A stretch of DNA of 64,000 nucleotides from Escherichia coli (GTDB lineage: Bacteria > Pseudomonadota > Gammaproteobacteria > Enterobacterales > Enterobacteriaceae): the NCBI RefSeq assembly GCF_003790525.1, contig NZ_CP033636.1; one strand, written 5' to 3'. This document shows, piece after piece, positions 59,010-63,961 of the stretch (its first letter is position 1; every line of letters begins with the position of its first letter). The notes under the pieces are model-generated. The model was not told the origin of the DNA. It searched no databases and saw only the letters and a program-made list of their open reading frames with translations. The translations under genes and the position numbers were made by a program.

Positions 59010-59360
59010 TTATTTTTTCTTGAACGGGTTAAGTCTGGTGAGATTAGAGAGTGCCCCTCCCGGAGGCAAAATTCCCGTTCTTTTATATTTGTACACGCCA
59101 TTTAATTTCATTGTCTGGATTCCAAGATTAATAAGCGTGACAAGTTTAAGGGTATACAGAAGTGTAAATTGTGGAGCAACCTGAATAAAAACCAATAACA
59201 AGCCTGCACACATTACACGTAGCCATGCCGCGTACTCCATGCTCAGCGGACGCTTGAAATAGAATCTTTCGAGCAAATCAACTGTCTTATTACTGATCCA
59301 CGCCGCCGCCACGGAGAGTAACAACACGATGCACACCATAATGCCCAGTTCCATTTTCAC
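59010..59360 (-). CDS. hypothetical membrane protein
   Basis: 116-aa ORF with two hydrophobic segments. Confidence 0.3.
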   Translation of the reverse strand: MKMELGIMVCIVLLLSVAAAWISNKTVDLLERFYFKRPLSMEYAAWLRVMCAGLLLVFIQVAPQFTLLYTLKLVTLINLGIQTMKLNGVYKYKRTGILPPGGALSNLTRLNPFKKK

Positions 59361-60195
59361 TCCCTTCTCTTTTAGTCTCTTTAAGTTGAGGCTTAGCCAC
59401 AGTAGTTTTGTTTTTTGCTTTTTTCTTAGGTTTGGTATGATGAAACAGAAAACAATCCACCATTACCCAACCATTTTTATATCGAGCCACCAGCATCTTC
59501 TGGCTGGGGTAATGAGCATGAAACAGCATTTTCACGTCCATGGTGCCCATCAACGACTGTTTGCGCTTTAGCTCATCCTCAGCCATCTGAAATTCTTGTA
59601 AGAATTCTGAAGACAGACGCTGACGCAGGATTCTTATGGCACTGGAGTTTTCATCATTCTTTGCCAGATGCCCGAAGCGTACTAGTGCCTTGTGGGTTAT
59701 CTGGATGGGTCCCAGATGAGAGCTGAGCTGTTCGTACTGCCAGAAGTAGGTCAAATCCACCTTAACCCAGCTGATGCTGTCCAGCAGAGCCTCGTTCATG
59801 ATGGTTCCGGACATTGGTACCATTGTCAGCCTGGCCAGACGCATATGTATGTAGTCCGTAAGCAACCTCAGCGACTCAGGAACGTTTTTATTGAGCAGGA
59901 GATGCTGAAGCACCGGGGTTGCGGTCTGCCAACACAGATTGCGCCCGTCAGGCAGGAAAGCAAACTTTTGATCGTCAGGCGCAGAGTTCGAAGCGTTTTC
60001 CTTACGAAGCAAAAAATAATGGCCGCACAGCAGCTCTGCTCTTACCTGGTCCTCGTCAGGGTCATGTCGGGCTTTACTTAGATCAACGGTAAGCACAACG
60101 CGGTTAATCGCATCAGCGTGATATTTTTTTACCCAGACGCAGACACGATAGAGACGCTCATCGATTTTCTGGCTGGCTGTGGAAATCCATTGCAT
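59290..60195 (-). CDS. hypothetical protein
   Basis: 301-aa ORF; no recognised family; 3' end overlaps the next ORF. Confidence 0.35.
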   Translation of the reverse strand: MQWISTASQKIDERLYRVCVWVKKYHADAINRVVLTVDLSKARHDPDEDQVRAELLCGHYFLLRKENASNSAPDDQKFAFLPDGRNLCWQTATPVLQHLLLNKNVPESLRLLTDYIHMRLARLTMVPMSGTIMNEALLDSISWVKVDLTYFWQYEQLSSHLGPIQITHKALVRFGHLAKNDENSSAIRILRQRLSSEFLQEFQMAEDELKRKQSLMGTMDVKMLFHAHYPSQKMLVARYKNGWVMVDCFLFHHTKPKKKAKNKTTVAKPQLKETKREGSENGTGHYGVHRVVTLRGGGVDQ

Positions 60196-60204
60196 TGTTG
60201 TTCC

Positions 60205-61185
60205 TTAATTTTCGGGGCTGACAATGAAAATGCCCAGCTCAGCCCCCGGCACGAGTTCTGTATATTTCAGGCTCAGCTTCCGTTGGTTGGACGGGCCCTG
60301 GCTGTTTTCAGGAGCCCAGTCAGAGAGCGTTTTTAATTGAGGTATGTTGCCTGCTGCGAAAATGGGCAAGGATGCTTTTACTACTGAATAATCAGTCTCA
60401 GCATATTTATTCCCGTTTCGTTCCTGCCCTTCAGGCCTAAATGCAAAAATGTGAGCAATCGGAACAGGGAAAGAGTTAGTTCGACAAAGGCGATAAGATT
60501 CGCCCTGCTTCAGTGGGTGAAATTCAAGACGGTGTAAAGCCTTATCGATATTAGACACGACATTCAAATTGGTAGTTGCTACATTTTTTACTTCTGAGGC
60601 TCTCCTGCGCTCCAACAAACTCACAAGTTGCTCTGCTGTTTTAACTTCCTGGTTTCGGTTTAGCCGCCATGAAAAAGTAACTTTTTTAAGCTGGGACTTG
60701 ATGAAAAGGACATTTCTTGTTGAGTGCATAGCGACAAGGCCCGGGAGCTTCTTGTGCACTTTATCAAAACGGACATTCTTTTTATTATCGATACGCCTCA
60801 TTGCCGCAGCAAAATCATTTTTTGCTTCATTTATAGATGTGATCAAGCTTTCGAGAAGATCTGCTCTTTCTGGGACAATGATAAGACCCGGGTATTTAGT
60901 GGTCACTTTGGTGGAATCATGACTTAATGACTCTATGTCATCCACACAGATGTCAGTAAGTGCCTGAATAATTTCCTCAACCGAAGCATCGTCTTTAACA
61001 CTAACCCTGATGGGTTTAACCTGCTTCAGTCGCTCTTCTGTTCGAGATACGGTGGAGACAGTCATCAGGTTTGCCATCAGCGGGGGGGTGTTCGAAAGAA
61101 AACACTTAAGCGAGTCGATACGTTCCAGAATCTGGTCACGAAAATAGGGCAAATCGTCATAACTCATACGTTTCTCCAGGCTCAT
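60205..61185 (-). CDS. possible Tus-like replication terminus-binding protein
   Basis: By-eye similarity to E. coli Tus over KVHKKLPGLVAMHSTRNVLF...FSWRLNRNQEV...LVSLLER; low-identity, unverified. Confidence 0.35.
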   Translation of the reverse strand: MSLEKRMSYDDLPYFRDQILERIDSLKCFLSNTPPLMANLMTVSTVSRTEERLKQVKPIRVSVKDDASVEEIIQALTDICVDDIESLSHDSTKVTTKYPGLIIVPERADLLESLITSINEAKNDFAAAMRRIDNKKNVRFDKVHKKLPGLVAMHSTRNVLFIKSQLKKVTFSWRLNRNQEVKTAEQLVSLLERRRASEVKNVATTNLNVVSNIDKALHRLEFHPLKQGESYRLCRTNSFPVPIAHIFAFRPEGQERNGNKYAETDYSVVKASLPIFAAGNIPQLKTLSDWAPENSQGPSNQRKLSLKYTELVPGAELGIFIVSPEN

Positions 61186-61257
61186 GTTATTTCAAATCAA
61201 TTTTGCTGCCCTGGCTGACCTTGCAGAACATAAATGTCATGTAAACCTCTAAAGAAG

Positions 61258-61704
61258 TCATTTTGAAACAGCTTTCACAGCATGCGATTTATGTTCGATA
61301 GGGCTCATGAACAAAGGATGATAATGGAGACGCCATGGATAGTGGATAGTCTTACCCACCTGGGTGATCCGATTGAGGCGAAAACGACCATTTATACAGT
61401 CAACTGACCAAAGCCCGGGAGAAACTAACCTCTTCCAGCGGTAAAAAGAGAAACCTGCAACACAGAGGTCATGCTCCAGGAAATGTTGAGTTTCGACGAC
61501 GCGAACTTTTATCAAAAACCCCAGCATTGGCGAAAACCAGATCAACAACCATGTTGGCGGCAGGATGACTTTGTTCAGGAGATGATCTGTCATAAGCAAG
61601 GCAGATAACATCAGAAAACTGATAGTCAACCACAGGGCCATCCAACCGGCCCATACGCGGCTCTGACAGGGTTTCCATTCGAGAAGAAAAAGTTTTTTAT
61701 GCAT
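61258..61704 (-). CDS. hypothetical membrane protein
   Basis: 148-aa ORF with hydrophobic N-terminal half. Confidence 0.3.
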   Translation of the reverse strand: MHKKLFLLEWKPCQSRVWAGWMALWLTISFLMLSALLMTDHLLNKVILPPTWLLIWFSPMLGFLIKVRVVETQHFLEHDLCVAGFSFYRWKRLVSPGLWSVDCINGRFRLNRITQVGKTIHYPWRLHYHPLFMSPIEHKSHAVKAVSK

Positions 61705-61720
61705 TCTGCCCCGCCTAATT

Positions 61721-62588: not shown

Positions 62589-62595
62589 TGAAAAA

Positions 62596-63186
62596 TCACT
62601 CCATTTCTGGGATCGAATGAAAATTAACAGCTATAGATGTATCAGGTTTCCCATTTTCTACGATACTCAACCACGTACGCGCTGAGATTTGTTGTTCACA
62701 GACGAGTATGTAACCTGTTCCCTGTTGATGATGTAGCTCAAGAGCTTTTAGGATAGGCCCTGAATGAGGTCCGAGAGCATCACGCGTGTGAATAAGCGTT
62801 TGCTCTGGCAATACGTTGCTAAGCATAGACAGCAGAACATTACGCTCATCCTCATTATCCGACAAAACAAGAATTATACGAAAACCCGTTTTTATACGAA
62901 ATCTGATCTCTGAAACTAACTTTCTTAATCTTAATTTATATATGACCAGGCGGAATCGAGTCATCAGTAAAGAAACCACTGTGAAGATAACGATTACTGC
63001 GCCATATTTTGACCTGTAGAACCACCAGTTAAGGCCTCCAGCAACTATCAGGATTAACATTAAAATTAAACTCCCATAGAAAAAAAGTGCTGGGTAGCGA
63101 GTTGTCTTTCCTTCAATTAGTGCTGAGGCAAATATCAAAATGGATATTCCGTAAATTACCCAGTCAAAAATACTTTCTCCAATCAT
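62596..63186 (-). CDS. hypothetical membrane protein with cytoplasmic C-terminal domain
   Basis: 196-aa ORF, three hydrophobic segments in the N-terminal half. Confidence 0.3.
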   Translation of the reverse strand: MIGESIFDWVIYGISILIFASALIEGKTTRYPALFFYGSLILMLILIVAGGLNWWFYRSKYGAVIVIFTVVSLLMTRFRLVIYKLRLRKLVSEIRFRIKTGFRIILVLSDNEDERNVLLSMLSNVLPEQTLIHTRDALGPHSGPILKALELHHQQGTGYILVCEQQISARTWLSIVENGKPDTSIAVNFHSIPEME

Positions 63187-63230
63187 TCTTTAGTGAACAT
63201 CCTTAAAAGTGGAAATGTAGGTTTATGGGT

Positions 63231-63536
63231 TTATGCATTTTCCTGATGGCCTTGACAACCAAGGATTTCACAGAAATTGTCACAGTGTGAAGCTGTAACA
63301 AAGCGCTCTCCACGTTCGAATCGCTCAACCAAATCCTTTCTTACTTCACTTCCAGGTTTCTGGAAGATGTACTCAAGCTGGAGATCCTCGGCCGTAGAAA
63401 GTAGTCGTTCTATGCTGAAATCAACATGGTAAAAGCAAAACTGATTATCAACCGGGGGAAAGTTGCTTTTGGTACTGTTCTCGTTTTTGGATTTTAGTTC
63501 ATTCATGAGCTCTCCTTGGTTGAGAACAGTATACAA
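63231..63536 (-). CDS. hypothetical protein
   Basis: 101-aa ORF; no recognised family. Confidence 0.25.
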   Translation of the reverse strand: MYTVLNQGELMNELKSKNENSTKSNFPPVDNQFCFYHVDFSIERLLSTAEDLQLEYIFQKPGSEVRKDLVERFERGERFVTASHCDNFCEILGCQGHQENA

Positions 63537-63769
63537 ATCTCTTTAGGGATTTTTTTTCGTTAATAGCACTTTTTTGAGTTTAAAGAGTATGTTCATACCA
63601 GAGCATTAGAGGCTACGAAAAGGATAATGGAATTAGAAAGATAGATTTTAAGTGGTGATGTAAGGTGGGATAGGTAGAAGAGGAGTAGACGCTTGTAAGC
63701 GAGGCAAAAAAAAGGCACGGAAACCGTGCCATAAGAGTATGTGAGAAAAAATCAAAATCAGGGAAAGAA

Positions 63770-63961
63770 TCAAGCAGCTTGTGAAACTGAATCTCCAACT
63801 GCAAGATTTAAATTTCTTAGGTTATCGAAAACTTCAGATACTAAGTCATTACGGTCGTGGATTTTAATCCGCCCACCGGTTAACTCTGAAACATAAACGG
63901 TATGGCAGAGGTCAGTAACCACTTCGCCGTATTCATCAACGACTTCCAAAGATGCAATCAT
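63770..63961 (-). CDS. hypothetical protein, probably the C-terminal part of a gene starting beyond the window end
   Basis: ORF on the minus strand reaching toward position 64000. Confidence 0.2.
   Translation of the reverse strand: MIASLEVVDEYGEVVTDLCHTVYVSELTGGRIKIHDRNDLVSEVFDNLRNLNLAVGDSVSQAA

What the first reader, a model, noticed from the sequence alone, without database searches (positions are those of the whole stretch)
59010..63961. Same-strand block of uncharacterised genes including a possible Tus homologue
Nine consecutive minus-strand ORFs, several with membrane segments, have no recognisable family by eye. One (60205-61185) shows low-level resemblance to the replication-terminus protein Tus. 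The ORFs at 59010-59360 and 59290-60195 overlap by 71 nt, which may indicate a frameshift or a mis-called start.
Basis: inference. Interest (0 to 1): 0.4.

Follow-up and report, generated by a model that had tools for sequence, protein, structure and literature searches.

The report
Known plasmid Tus gene in conserved operon
This stretch is ordinary, already-annotated backbone of IncHI2 resistance plasmids: an eight-gene operon of orphan genes that includes a genuine but very divergent copy of the replication-fork-stopping protein Tus, whose DNA target on the plasmid is still unknown.

Summary
Nine minus-strand ORFs lie at the stated coordinates, and three of them have membrane segments. The ninth is only the cut-off 3' end of a 318-aa gene, and a strong terminator separates it from the other eight. 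Those eight form one tightly packed unit (63506 to 59010).

ORF 60205-61167 is a real Tus-family protein:
- It scores 69 bits against Pfam Ter (cut-off 22).
- A profile-profile comparison gives E=5e-34 over 290 columns.
- Its AlphaFold model matches only Tus-Ter crystal structures.
- It keeps the cytosine-lock pocket residues (F140, H144, G149 equivalents) and the E49 equivalent.

PGAP already names it, and the IncHI2 literature mentions tus. The same block is more than 99% identical in over 1,100 plasmids and is syntenic in IncHI1 R27, Photorhabdus, Lelliottia and more distant relatives.

The other genes match no family in four libraries. The 71-nt overlap (65 nt from the better-supported ATG) is a natural, conserved gene overlap, not a frameshift.

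The window holds no E. coli-type Ter site. IncHI2 has one Ter-like core near oriT that lacks the lock base pair, and R27 has none, so the cognate site is unknown.

Verdict: already known, low interest.

Side observation: a 15-bp palindrome, GAAAAGTWACTTTTC, occurs about 45 times per IncHI plasmid.

The parts
63770..63961 (-). 3' end (last 63 codons) of a 318-aa very acidic hypothetical gene cut by the window edge. It is not part of the tus unit. It is the last of five consecutive ~300-aa genes, and the gene next to it is a paralogue.
   Evidence: full gene at L001 13771-14727. (27% identity, E=5e-37, to the neighbouring 312-aa gene; 54 D+E against 24 K+R).
63714..63730 (-). Intrinsic terminator hairpin (GGCACGG-TTT-CCGTGCC) followed by T8. 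It ends the upstream gene.
   Evidence: (-12.5 kcal/mol, z=-4.5, 0 of 200 shuffles fold as well).
63231..63506 (-). First gene of the 8-gene unit, 91 aa, soluble and acidic, no family. The ATG at 63506 follows a GGAGA Shine-Dalgarno sequence.
   Evidence: No significant family match.
62596..63186 (-). 196-aa protein with three N-terminal hydrophobic segments and a soluble C-terminal part; no family.
62331..62588 (-). 85-aa soluble protein, conserved across all lineages; no family. The TetR_N hit is sub-threshold.
   Evidence: (E=0.075, below cut-off), and (no credible PDB relative).
61721..62257 (-). 178-aa acidic soluble protein; no family.
61258..61704 (-). 148-aa protein with two hydrophobic segments; no family. 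An IS91 disrupts it in plasmid p602A1.
60205..61167 (-). Plasmid-clade Tus (DNA replication terminus site-binding protein family), 320 aa. Both Tus domains are present.
   Evidence: PF05472, 69 bits against 22. (Foldseek matches only Tus; 1ECR E=6e-13, TM 0.56-0.58). (hhalign probability 99.9, E=5.3e-34, 290 columns). (start codon with Shine-Dalgarno). (PGAP name).
60674..60684 (.). Copy of the backbone-wide palindrome AAAGTWACTTT inside tus. It encodes the invariant peptide KKVTF and sits at the same place in six lineages.
59290..60195 (-). 301-aa basic protein that starts 9 nt after the tus stop and accompanies tus in every relative. Its family is confined to this plasmid clade and its fold is unresolved.
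   Evidence: (pLDDT 50). (no structural or sequence relative).
59010..59354 (-). 114-aa protein with two hydrophobic segments and a basic tail. Its ATG at 59354 follows a GGGAG Shine-Dalgarno sequence, and it overlaps the upstream gene by 65 nt in another frame.
58988..59003 (.). Conserved GC-rich hairpin (GCGCCC-loop-GGGCGC) between the convergent ends of the tus unit and the tyrosine recombinase gene. It is a shared terminator.
   Evidence: (conserved in 5 lineages), and (-13.7 kcal/mol, z=-3.5).
57804..58988 (+). Context: a convergent tyrosine recombinase, invariably next to the tus unit in all relatives. Hha and a CoiA-like gene follow it.
   Evidence: (Phage_integrase, E=1.8e-13).

Best explanation
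The region is conserved IncHI-type plasmid backbone. Eight genes (63506 down to 59010, minus strand) form one tightly packed transcription unit. A terminator bounds it upstream, and a hairpin shared with a convergent tyrosine recombinase gene bounds it downstream.

The sixth gene encodes a genuine but very divergent member of the Tus family, with about 14-17% identity to E. coli Tus. It has the complete two-domain fold and retains the pocket that traps a flipped-out cytosine.

Shown:
- Family membership.
- The full fold.
- The conserved pocket residues.
- Deep synteny with a 260-300-aa soluble protein, a ~110-aa two-helix membrane protein, the recombinase and Hha.

Inferred: the protein binds an asymmetric site on the plasmid as a monomer and stops replication forks from one direction by the same strand-separation 'lock' as E. 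coli Tus. Given its fixed position next to the recombinase, it probably keeps termination, or fork direction, in a defined place on these large multi-replicon plasmids. Its recognition sequence must differ from E. coli Ter and has not been found.

The other seven genes are clade-restricted orphans of unknown role. The 65-nt overlap is a natural feature.
For: - Identity of the region: more than 1,100 plasmids are at least 99% identical, and PGAP names the Tus gene.
- Tus family: 69 bits against Pfam's cut-off of 22. An exhaustive profile search links the clade continuously to ~300-aa Tus proteins, with 189 representatives out of 1.84 billion. hhalign gives E=5.3e-34 over the full length. The AF2 model (pLDDT 73.6) hits only Tus-Ter structures, and the next hit has E=1.5.
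- Functional residues listed in the review PMC10331603, Table 1, map as E49 to E45, F140 to F134, H144 to H138 and G149 to G143. All family-wide invariant residues are kept: P95, G96, N118, R157, P258. The signature RF..VH..(L/F)PG(L/I) is kept in every distant relative.
- Synteny holds in R27, Photorhabdus, Lelliottia and the P0039 and P0042 lineages.
- Operon boundaries and packing.
- The overlap is natural.
- Literature: IncHI2 tus has been noted (PMC5923156), and plasmid-borne 'mobile' tus genes are described as the likely source of chromosomal tus (PMC6549158).
Against: - No cognate site was found. The window has no E. coli-type Ter above chance.
- IncHI2 has a single Ter-like core near oriT (R478 188,981; identical in plasmid 1205p1), but it has T where the G-C(6) lock base pair should be, and its matrix score is within the range of shuffles. 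R27 has none.
- The equivalents of E47 and R198, and several residues I recall as base contacts, are not conserved.
- It falls far below NCBIfam's equivalog cut-offs for chromosomal Tus (53 against 323 bits).
- tus lies about 56 kb from RepHIA. It is neither next to an origin nor opposite one in R478, and GC skew does not mark the locus.
- The unit is dispensable. IS1 and IS91 insertions disrupt it in some plasmids, and a Tus truncated at about residue 212 stands for 249 database sequences.
- No experiment on this protein was found in the searchable literature.
Confidence: 0.6

Rival explanations
1. The Tus-fold protein has been repurposed. It is a sequence-specific DNA-binding regulator or transcriptional roadblock rather than a replication fork barrier. 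Its target might be the GTAAC-centred palindrome AAAGTWACTTT, which is scattered over the backbone and present inside its own gene.
For: - The palindrome occurs 47 times in R478 and 42 times in R27, against 0.2 and 0.14 expected.
- One copy sits at the same position inside tus in six lineages, although the proteins are only 46-65% identical.
- Each copy contains GTAACT, which is also part of the E. coli Ter core.
- No classical Ter was found.
- E. coli Tus regulates its own gene through the adjacent TerB site (established knowledge).
Against: - The motif is a symmetric 15-bp palindrome with no asymmetric flanks and no positional polarity. That is the signature of a dimeric binder, whereas Tus binds asymmetric sites as a monomer.
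- About 45 sites in mixed orientation make no sense as fork barriers.
- The intragenic copy encodes an invariant peptide (KKVTF) in A/T-rich codons, so part of its conservation is due to the protein.
- The most divergent lineage (L140) shows neither the motif nor a replacement, so there is no covariation.
- A shared 6-mer is weak evidence.
Confidence: 0.1
2. On IncHI2 the plasmid Tus, or the host's own Tus, acts at the single E. coli-type Ter-like site near oriT. This is the 'potential ter site' of the literature. It would serve as a one-sided backstop for forks moving clockwise toward the transfer region.
For: - R478 188,981 reads GATATTTAAGTTGTAACTAATAT and shares a 13-bp core with TerI/TerJ. 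The 10-mer GTTGTAACTA is expected 0.5 times per plasmid.
- The site is identical in a plasmid of this window's lineage.
- The pSTM6-275 paper mentions a potential ter site together with tus.
Against: - Position 6 is T, not G, so the cytosine needed for the lock is absent.
- The matrix score of 17.7 lies within the maxima of shuffled sequence (16.6 +/- 2.0).
- The site is absent from R27, and the surrounding spacer matches only IncHI2 plasmids. It therefore cannot explain a gene conserved across the whole clade.
- Residues that I recall as base contacts in E. coli Tus differ in the plasmid protein.
Confidence: 0.15
3. The gene is a decaying relic with no present function on IncHI2 plasmids.
For: - Truncated and frameshifted versions are common in databases (P0004 with 249 sequences, and P0035).
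- IS insertions occur in the unit.
- IncHI2 has already lost the ~202-aa gene that lies just upstream of tus in other lineages.
Against: - The full-length gene is intact, and the clade keeps 49 invariant columns down to 46% identity.
- Synteny and the functional pocket are preserved in lineages far more distant than IncHI1 and IncHI2.
- Most of the more than 1,100 plasmids carry the intact gene.
Confidence: 0.1
4. One reading: the overlapping ORFs at 59010-59360 and 59290-60195 are one gene split by a frameshift, or one joined by programmed frameshifting.
For: - A 394-aa fusion (P0187, 44 sequences) arises from a 1-nt deletion in the A6 run of the lysine-rich tract.
- In IncHI2 and IncHI1 the downstream frame is open for 36 and 60 codons upstream of its ATG.
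Against: - In Photorhabdus and Lelliottia a stop closes that frame 14 and 5 codons upstream. In Lelliottia and L138 the two genes do not overlap at all.
- Every lineage keeps a GGAG Shine-Dalgarno sequence and its own start for the downstream gene.
- The two-gene arrangement is identical in more than 1,100 plasmids.
Confidence: 0.03

Closest known systems
E. coli Tus (P16525; PDB 1ECR, 2I05, 4XR0) and the Tus-Ter replication fork trap
   Same: Same Pfam family (PF05472), same two-domain fold over the full length, and the same cytosine-lock pocket residues (F140, H144, G149) and E49.
   Different: - Only about 14-17% identity.
- Fails the NCBIfam equivalog cut-offs.
- The E47 and R198 equivalents are not conserved.
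- No Ter site adjacent to the gene and no E. coli-type Ter conserved on the plasmids.
- Embedded in the middle of an operon, not standing alone behind its own TerB-controlled promoter.
Plasmid-borne 'mobile' tus genes of gamma-proteobacteria (Galli et al. 2019, PMC6549158)
   Same: This is one of them: a tus carried on conjugative plasmids whose distribution does not follow host phylogeny.
   Different: That work classified such genes phylogenetically. It did not define the IncHI operon, its linked partner genes or any cognate site.
Fork barriers of plasmids R1/R100 and R6K
   Same: Tus-dependent control of fork direction or termination on a plasmid (review PMC10331603).
   Different: Those plasmids carry only Ter sites next to their origin and borrow the host's Tus. 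IncHI plasmids carry their own divergent tus about 56 kb from RepHIA and have no recognisable origin-proximal Ter.
tus next to the origin of the Pseudoalteromonas second chromosome
   Same: A tus of plasmid descent with an implied but unidentified ter. In R27 and in lineage L138 a replication initiator gene (RepFIA, Rep3_N) lies 3-5 kb from tus, in the slot between hha and the CoiA-like gene.
   Different: In this IncHI2 window that slot holds no rep gene, only a 330-nt AT-rich spacer.

Membership tests
Tus / Ter protein family (Pfam PF05472) | Score above Pfam's gathering threshold | tested here: met
   69 bits against a cut-off of 22, E=4.6e-19, residues 20-217.
Tus / Ter protein family (Pfam PF05472) | Complete two-domain Tus fold, including the C-terminal domain that Pfam did not align | tested here: met
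   hhalign gives probability 99.9 and E=5.3e-34 over 290 columns, spanning residues 4-317. Foldseek finds 1ECR_A with E=6e-13, TM 0.56-0.58 and 332 columns, and no other fold below E=1.5. The model's confidence is moderate (pLDDT 73.6).
Tus / Ter protein family (Pfam PF05472) | Family-wide invariant residues (P95, G96, N118, R157, P258; near-invariant S87, K121, P148, W172, R232, P238) | tested here: met
   All map to identical residues that are invariant or nearly so in the plasmid clade.
Tus-Ter 'lock' mechanism | Cytosine-binding pocket residues F140, H144 and G149 (review PMC10331603, Table 1) | tested here: met
   They map to F134, H138 and G143 by profile alignment, and the signature is kept in all distant relatives. 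This rests on alignment only; the pocket geometry was not inspected.
Tus-Ter 'lock' mechanism | E49, E47 and R198 (helicase interaction and mousetrap stabilisation) | tested here: inconclusive
   E49 maps to E45 and is conserved. E47 maps to T43, which is variable. R198 maps to V193 in a poorly aligned helix.
Chromosomal Tus equivalog (NCBIfam TIGR02648 / NF002810) | Score above the equivalog cut-off | tested here: not met
   53.1 against 323 bits, and 20.9 against 178.3 bits. It is a family member but not an equivalog of chromosomal Tus.
Tus-Ter replication fork trap (system) | Cognate Ter sites, typically one adjacent to tus, with oppositely oriented sites flanking a terminus | tested here: not met
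   - No E. coli-type Ter in the window.
- One G6-less core in IncHI2, about 125 kb from tus.
- None in R27.
- No conserved candidate in the spacers flanking the operon and no conserved inverted pair.
- A site with a different sequence cannot be excluded.
Tus-Ter replication fork trap (system) | Polar arrest of replication forks | not testable with these tools
   Needs 2D gels, marker-frequency analysis or in vitro helicase assays.

The most novel reading that the evidence does not exclude
The cognate site of the IncHI Tus-like protein is not a classical Ter. It is the GTAAC-centred 15-bp palindrome GAAAAGTWACTTTTC, which is scattered about 45 times over the backbone and has one deeply conserved copy inside tus itself. 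Under this reading the protein is a plasmid-wide, non-polar DNA-binding or roadblock factor. It might be tethered to the membrane through its two invariably linked partner proteins, and it would not be a terminus-specific fork trap. That would be a new use of the Tus fold, and possibly closer to the ancestral plasmid function from which chromosomal fork traps were domesticated.
Probability: 0.07. Interest if true: 0.75.

Novelty: already known. Interest (0 to 1): 0.25.

Why it matters
As filed, it matters little. The gene is annotated in more than a thousand sequenced plasmids, and the IncHI2 literature mentions it.

The residual interest lies in three points:
- Nobody appears to have identified the DNA site or tested the function of this plasmid Tus clade.
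- Chromosomal tus is thought to have been domesticated from plasmid genes (Galli 2019). A deeply conserved plasmid module of Tus, two fixed partner proteins and a tyrosine recombinase would be a natural place to look for the ancestral role.
- IncHI plasmids are major carriers of multidrug, colistin and metal resistance, and they have two or three replicons. Whatever controls their fork movement and termination could bear on their stability.

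Tried and rejected
1. E. coli Ter consensus and a 10-site position matrix, scanned over the window, whole R478, whole R27 and five relatives' loci. This gave only chance-level hits, apart from the single G6-less IncHI2 core.
2. De novo k-mer search for motifs repeated in both R478 and R27. It found the palindrome, the partition-array repeats and the oriT repeats, but nothing asymmetric and low-copy that looks like a Ter.
3. The palindrome as a Ter. Rejected because it is symmetric, non-polar and far too numerous.
4. Conserved non-coding blocks around the operon and inverted pairs flanking tus and the recombinase. These showed a shared terminator hairpin, a conserved ~70-nt block upstream of the recombinase and a probable internal promoter. 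R27's strong pairs are RepFIA iterons.
5. GC skew to locate a terminus. Gene orientation and accessory DNA dominate it.
6. Programmed frameshift at the A6 run. Rejected because it is not conserved.
7. Structure of the 301-aa partner. pLDDT is 50 and there is no significant fold or sequence relative; the best hit is a faint RelE/ParE-like resemblance at E=0.4.
8. Profile searches of the 85-aa and 178-aa families against PDB sequences. Only short chance matches turned up.
9. Genome-collection scan for the 15-bp palindrome.
10. Literature searches for the motif and for IncHI Tus experiments. They turned up only the brief mention of tus and a potential ter site in the pSTM6-275 paper, and nothing on the motif or on experiments.
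11. Covariation between Tus and the motif in the most divergent lineage. None was seen, but the test covered only 21 kb.

Full report
WHAT IS THERE. The window is part of an IncHI2 plasmid. Positions 59000-64000 are at least 99% identical to 1,116 plasmid records, mostly from Escherichia, Salmonella and Enterobacter. Eight are annotated 'hypothetical protein' and one 'DNA replication terminus site-binding protein'.

The ORF at 63770-63961 is only the 3' end of a 318-aa gene cut by the window's end. A strong intrinsic terminator follows it at 63714-63730 (-12.5 kcal/mol, z=-4.5). The remaining eight genes have gaps of 44, 7, 73, 16, 90, 9 and -65 nt. They end at a conserved GC-rich hairpin (58988-59003; -13.7 kcal/mol, z=-3.5) shared with a convergent tyrosine recombinase gene. 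So the block is one eight-gene unit plus the tail of a separate gene.

Three products have clear hydrophobic segments: the 114-aa protein has 2, the 148-aa protein 2 and the 196-aa protein 3. Better-supported starts, each behind a GGAGA or GGGAG Shine-Dalgarno sequence, are 63506, 61167 and 59354.

THE TUS HOMOLOGUE. At profile level the match is unambiguous:
- Pfam PF05472 gives 69 bits against a cut-off of 22.
- An exhaustive profile search of 1.84 billion cluster representatives finds only 189 relatives. They run without a break from the plasmid clade into ordinary ~300-aa Tus proteins.
- I built a chromosomal Tus alignment anchored on the E. coli sequence, which I first verified as identical to PDB chain 1ECR_A. 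A profile-profile comparison of that alignment with the plasmid clade gives probability 99.9 and E=5.3e-34 over 290 columns. It covers both domains, including the C-terminal one that Pfam did not align.
- An AlphaFold model (pLDDT 73.6) matches only Tus-Ter crystal structures (1ECR E=6e-13, TM 0.56-0.58). The next hit has E=1.5.

The residues that a recent review lists as holding the flipped cytosine C6 (F140, H144, G149) and as slowing the helicase (E49) are conserved, as F134, H138, G143 and E45 (PMC10331603 Table 1; mapping). The E47 and R198 equivalents are not. Residues I recall as base contacts also differ (A173 to R, K175 to N, H176 to R); that assignment rests on my own knowledge. The protein falls far below NCBIfam's equivalog cut-offs. 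It is therefore a true family member and probably keeps the lock mechanism, but it is not an equivalog and very likely recognises a different sequence.

CONTEXT AND CONSERVATION. The close family is small: 36 clusters at 90% identity, running from IncHI2, through IncHI1 at about 59%, down to 46%. The gene order is the same in every relative examined: R27, Photorhabdus, Lelliottia and the much more distant P0039 and P0042 lineages. It runs as follows:
- a toprim-domain gene;
- a ~174-aa gene;
- two to five ~300-aa genes;
- genes of ~90, ~196, ~85, ~178 and ~148 aa;
- a ~202-aa gene, in most lineages;
- Tus;
- a 260-300-aa gene;
- a ~110-aa membrane protein;
- a convergent tyrosine recombinase;
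- Hha;
- a CoiA-like gene.

IncHI2 lacks the ~202-aa gene and has a 90-nt spacer in its place. In R27 and in lineage L138 a replication initiator (RepFIA and Rep3_N respectively) occupies the slot between hha and the CoiA-like gene. In both R478 and R27, tus lies at the far end of a ~56-kb co-oriented gene array that starts at RepHIA.

The unit is dispensable. An IS1 sits in its promoter region in pKA2-2, and an IS91 disrupts the 148-aa gene in p602A1. A Tus truncated near residue 212 stands for 249 database sequences.

THE OTHER GENES. None of the other eight products has a significant match in Pfam, NCBIfam, PHROGs or PADLOC. The 301-aa protein starts 9 nt after tus and accompanies it everywhere. 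Its relatives are confined to this clade (13 clusters). Its model is poor (pLDDT 50), and neither a fold search nor a profile search finds a relative; the best result is E=0.4, a faint RelE/ParE-like resemblance. Profiles of the 85-aa and 178-aa families also find nothing credible. The cut 318-aa gene has a paralogue next to it (E=5e-37) and is very acidic.

THE OVERLAP. Both frames are open and conserved in IncHI1 and Photorhabdus, with protein identities of 75-79%. The conserved C-terminal tail of the 301-aa protein mirrors the first membrane helix of the 114-aa protein read in another frame. In Lelliottia and L138 the upstream protein ends about 35 residues earlier and nothing overlaps. A 394-aa fusion in databases (P0187, 44 sequences) comes from a 1-nt deletion in an A6 run. 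The downstream frame is closed by stops 14 and 5 codons upstream of the start in Photorhabdus and Lelliottia, so programmed frameshifting is not conserved. The overlap is natural, and the start was mis-called by two codons.

TER SITES. The E. coli consensus and a 10-site position matrix find nothing above chance in the window. Whole R478 has one notable site at 188,981 (+), GATATTTAAGTTGTAACTAATAT, in the spacer next to oriT. It shares a 13-bp core with TerI/TerJ but has T at position 6, where all E. coli sites have the G-C pair that supplies the locking cytosine. Its matrix score (17.7) lies within the maxima of shuffled sequence (16.6 +/- 2.0). The site is identical in plasmid 1205p1, whose backbone matches this window at 100% (H24). 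It is probably the 'potential ter site' mentioned in the pSTM6-275 paper. That spacer matches only IncHI2 plasmids, and R27 has no comparable site. It therefore cannot explain a gene conserved across the whole clade. Comparative searches of the flanking spacers and a search for inverted pairs gave no candidate. The cognate site remains unknown.

AN UNEXPECTED SIDE OBSERVATION. The k-mer comparison of R478 and R27 exposed the palindrome AAAGTWACTTT.
- It has 47 exact copies in R478 and 42 in R27, against 0.2 and 0.14 expected, and four in this window against 0.02 expected.
- The extended consensus is a symmetric 15-mer, GAAAAGTWACTTTTC, with no polarity.
- Copies lie outside long ORFs 43-55% of the time, against about 20% for random positions. 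The intergenic copies cluster 80-220 nt upstream of gene starts.
- Several copies are positionally conserved between the two plasmids.
- One copy lies inside tus, encoding the invariant KKVTF, at the same place in six lineages.

I found no description of it in the searchable literature. Its symmetry points to a dimeric global regulator rather than to Tus. I keep a Tus link only as a low-probability novel reading.

VERDICT. The Tus call is correct and the frameshift idea is not. The feature is already annotated and mentioned in the literature, so it counts as already known and of low interest. The open question is what this plasmid Tus binds and does. I consider a polar fork barrier at an unidentified plasmid-specific site the most likely answer (about 0.6). 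The rivals are listed separately, and the experiments that would decide between them are simple.

Noticed in passing
Window 38168-38178, 42760-42770, 57229-57239, 60674-60684; R478 (L002-L007) 47 copies; R27 (L013-L016) 42 copies: The symmetric 15-bp palindrome GAAAAGTWACTTTTC (core AAAGTWACTTT) is over-represented 200-300-fold on IncHI1 and IncHI2 backbones. It is 2-2.7-fold enriched outside long ORFs, and the intergenic copies cluster 80-220 nt upstream of gene starts. Some copies are positionally conserved between R27 and R478, and one is conserved inside tus in six lineages. It looks like the operator of an unidentified global dimeric regulator. I found no description of it in the searchable literature.
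   Followed up: partly
L001 13771-18777 (beyond the window's end; first gene reaches window 63770-63961): Five consecutive ~300-aa hypothetical genes lie upstream of the tus unit. Two pairs are detectably paralogous (E=5e-37 and 9e-5), and the first is strongly acidic (54 D+E against 24 K+R). The series is conserved in number-variable form in all relatives.
   Followed up: partly
Window 61168-61257; L010 9403-10011, L011 9403-10011, L008 9412-10032, L138 9394-10008: A ~202-aa gene (weak DUF2913 hit in L138) lies between the 148-aa gene and tus, overlapping the tus start, in the IncHI1-like locus L011, Photorhabdus, Lelliottia and L138. It is absent from IncHI2, which has only a 90-nt spacer there. 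R27 itself seems to keep only a 91-aa remnant.
   Followed up: no
Window 57100-57429; R27 156848-157603; L138 14645-15727: The slot between hha and the CoiA-like gene holds a replication initiator in two lineages: RepFIA in R27 and a Rep3_N protein in L138. This puts a replicon 3-5 kb from tus. In this window the slot is a 330-nt AT-rich spacer (GC about 0.35) containing one copy of the palindrome.
   Followed up: no
Window 59418-59423 (A6 run inside the 301-aa gene): A 1-nt deletion in this A6 run fuses the 301-aa and 114-aa proteins into a 394-aa product. That product stands for 44 database sequences (P0187). These may be real variants or homopolymer sequencing errors.
   Followed up: yes
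Window 57735-57803: A ~70-nt block immediately upstream of the tyrosine recombinase gene is conserved across IncHI2, R27, an IncHI1-like plasmid and Photorhabdus. It may hold the recombinase's promoter or its recombination site.
   Followed up: no
R478 188,981-189,003 (L005 38981-39003); L141 789-805: A single E. coli-type Ter-like core (AAGTTGTAACTAA) lies in the oriT-proximal spacer of IncHI2 plasmids, outside this window. It has T instead of G at the lock position 6.
   Followed up: yes
R478 12.5-15 kb and R27 25.6-26.1 kb; R478 190751-190820 and R27 108436-108567; R478 88246/88483 and R27 152166/152402: R478 and R27 share other repeat families: arrays containing TTAAGGGGGTTAAAT next to parAB, repeats of AAAGTGACCCTATG in the oriT region, and an inverted pair GATGAGGACATGCA about 237 nt apart.
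   Followed up: no
L142 5202-5899 (pKA2-2); L143 2898-4450 (p602A1): IS1 is inserted in the presumed promoter region of the tus unit, and IS91 is inserted in the 148-aa gene, in two otherwise identical plasmids. Both plasmids are typed as non-mobilizable.
   Followed up: partly
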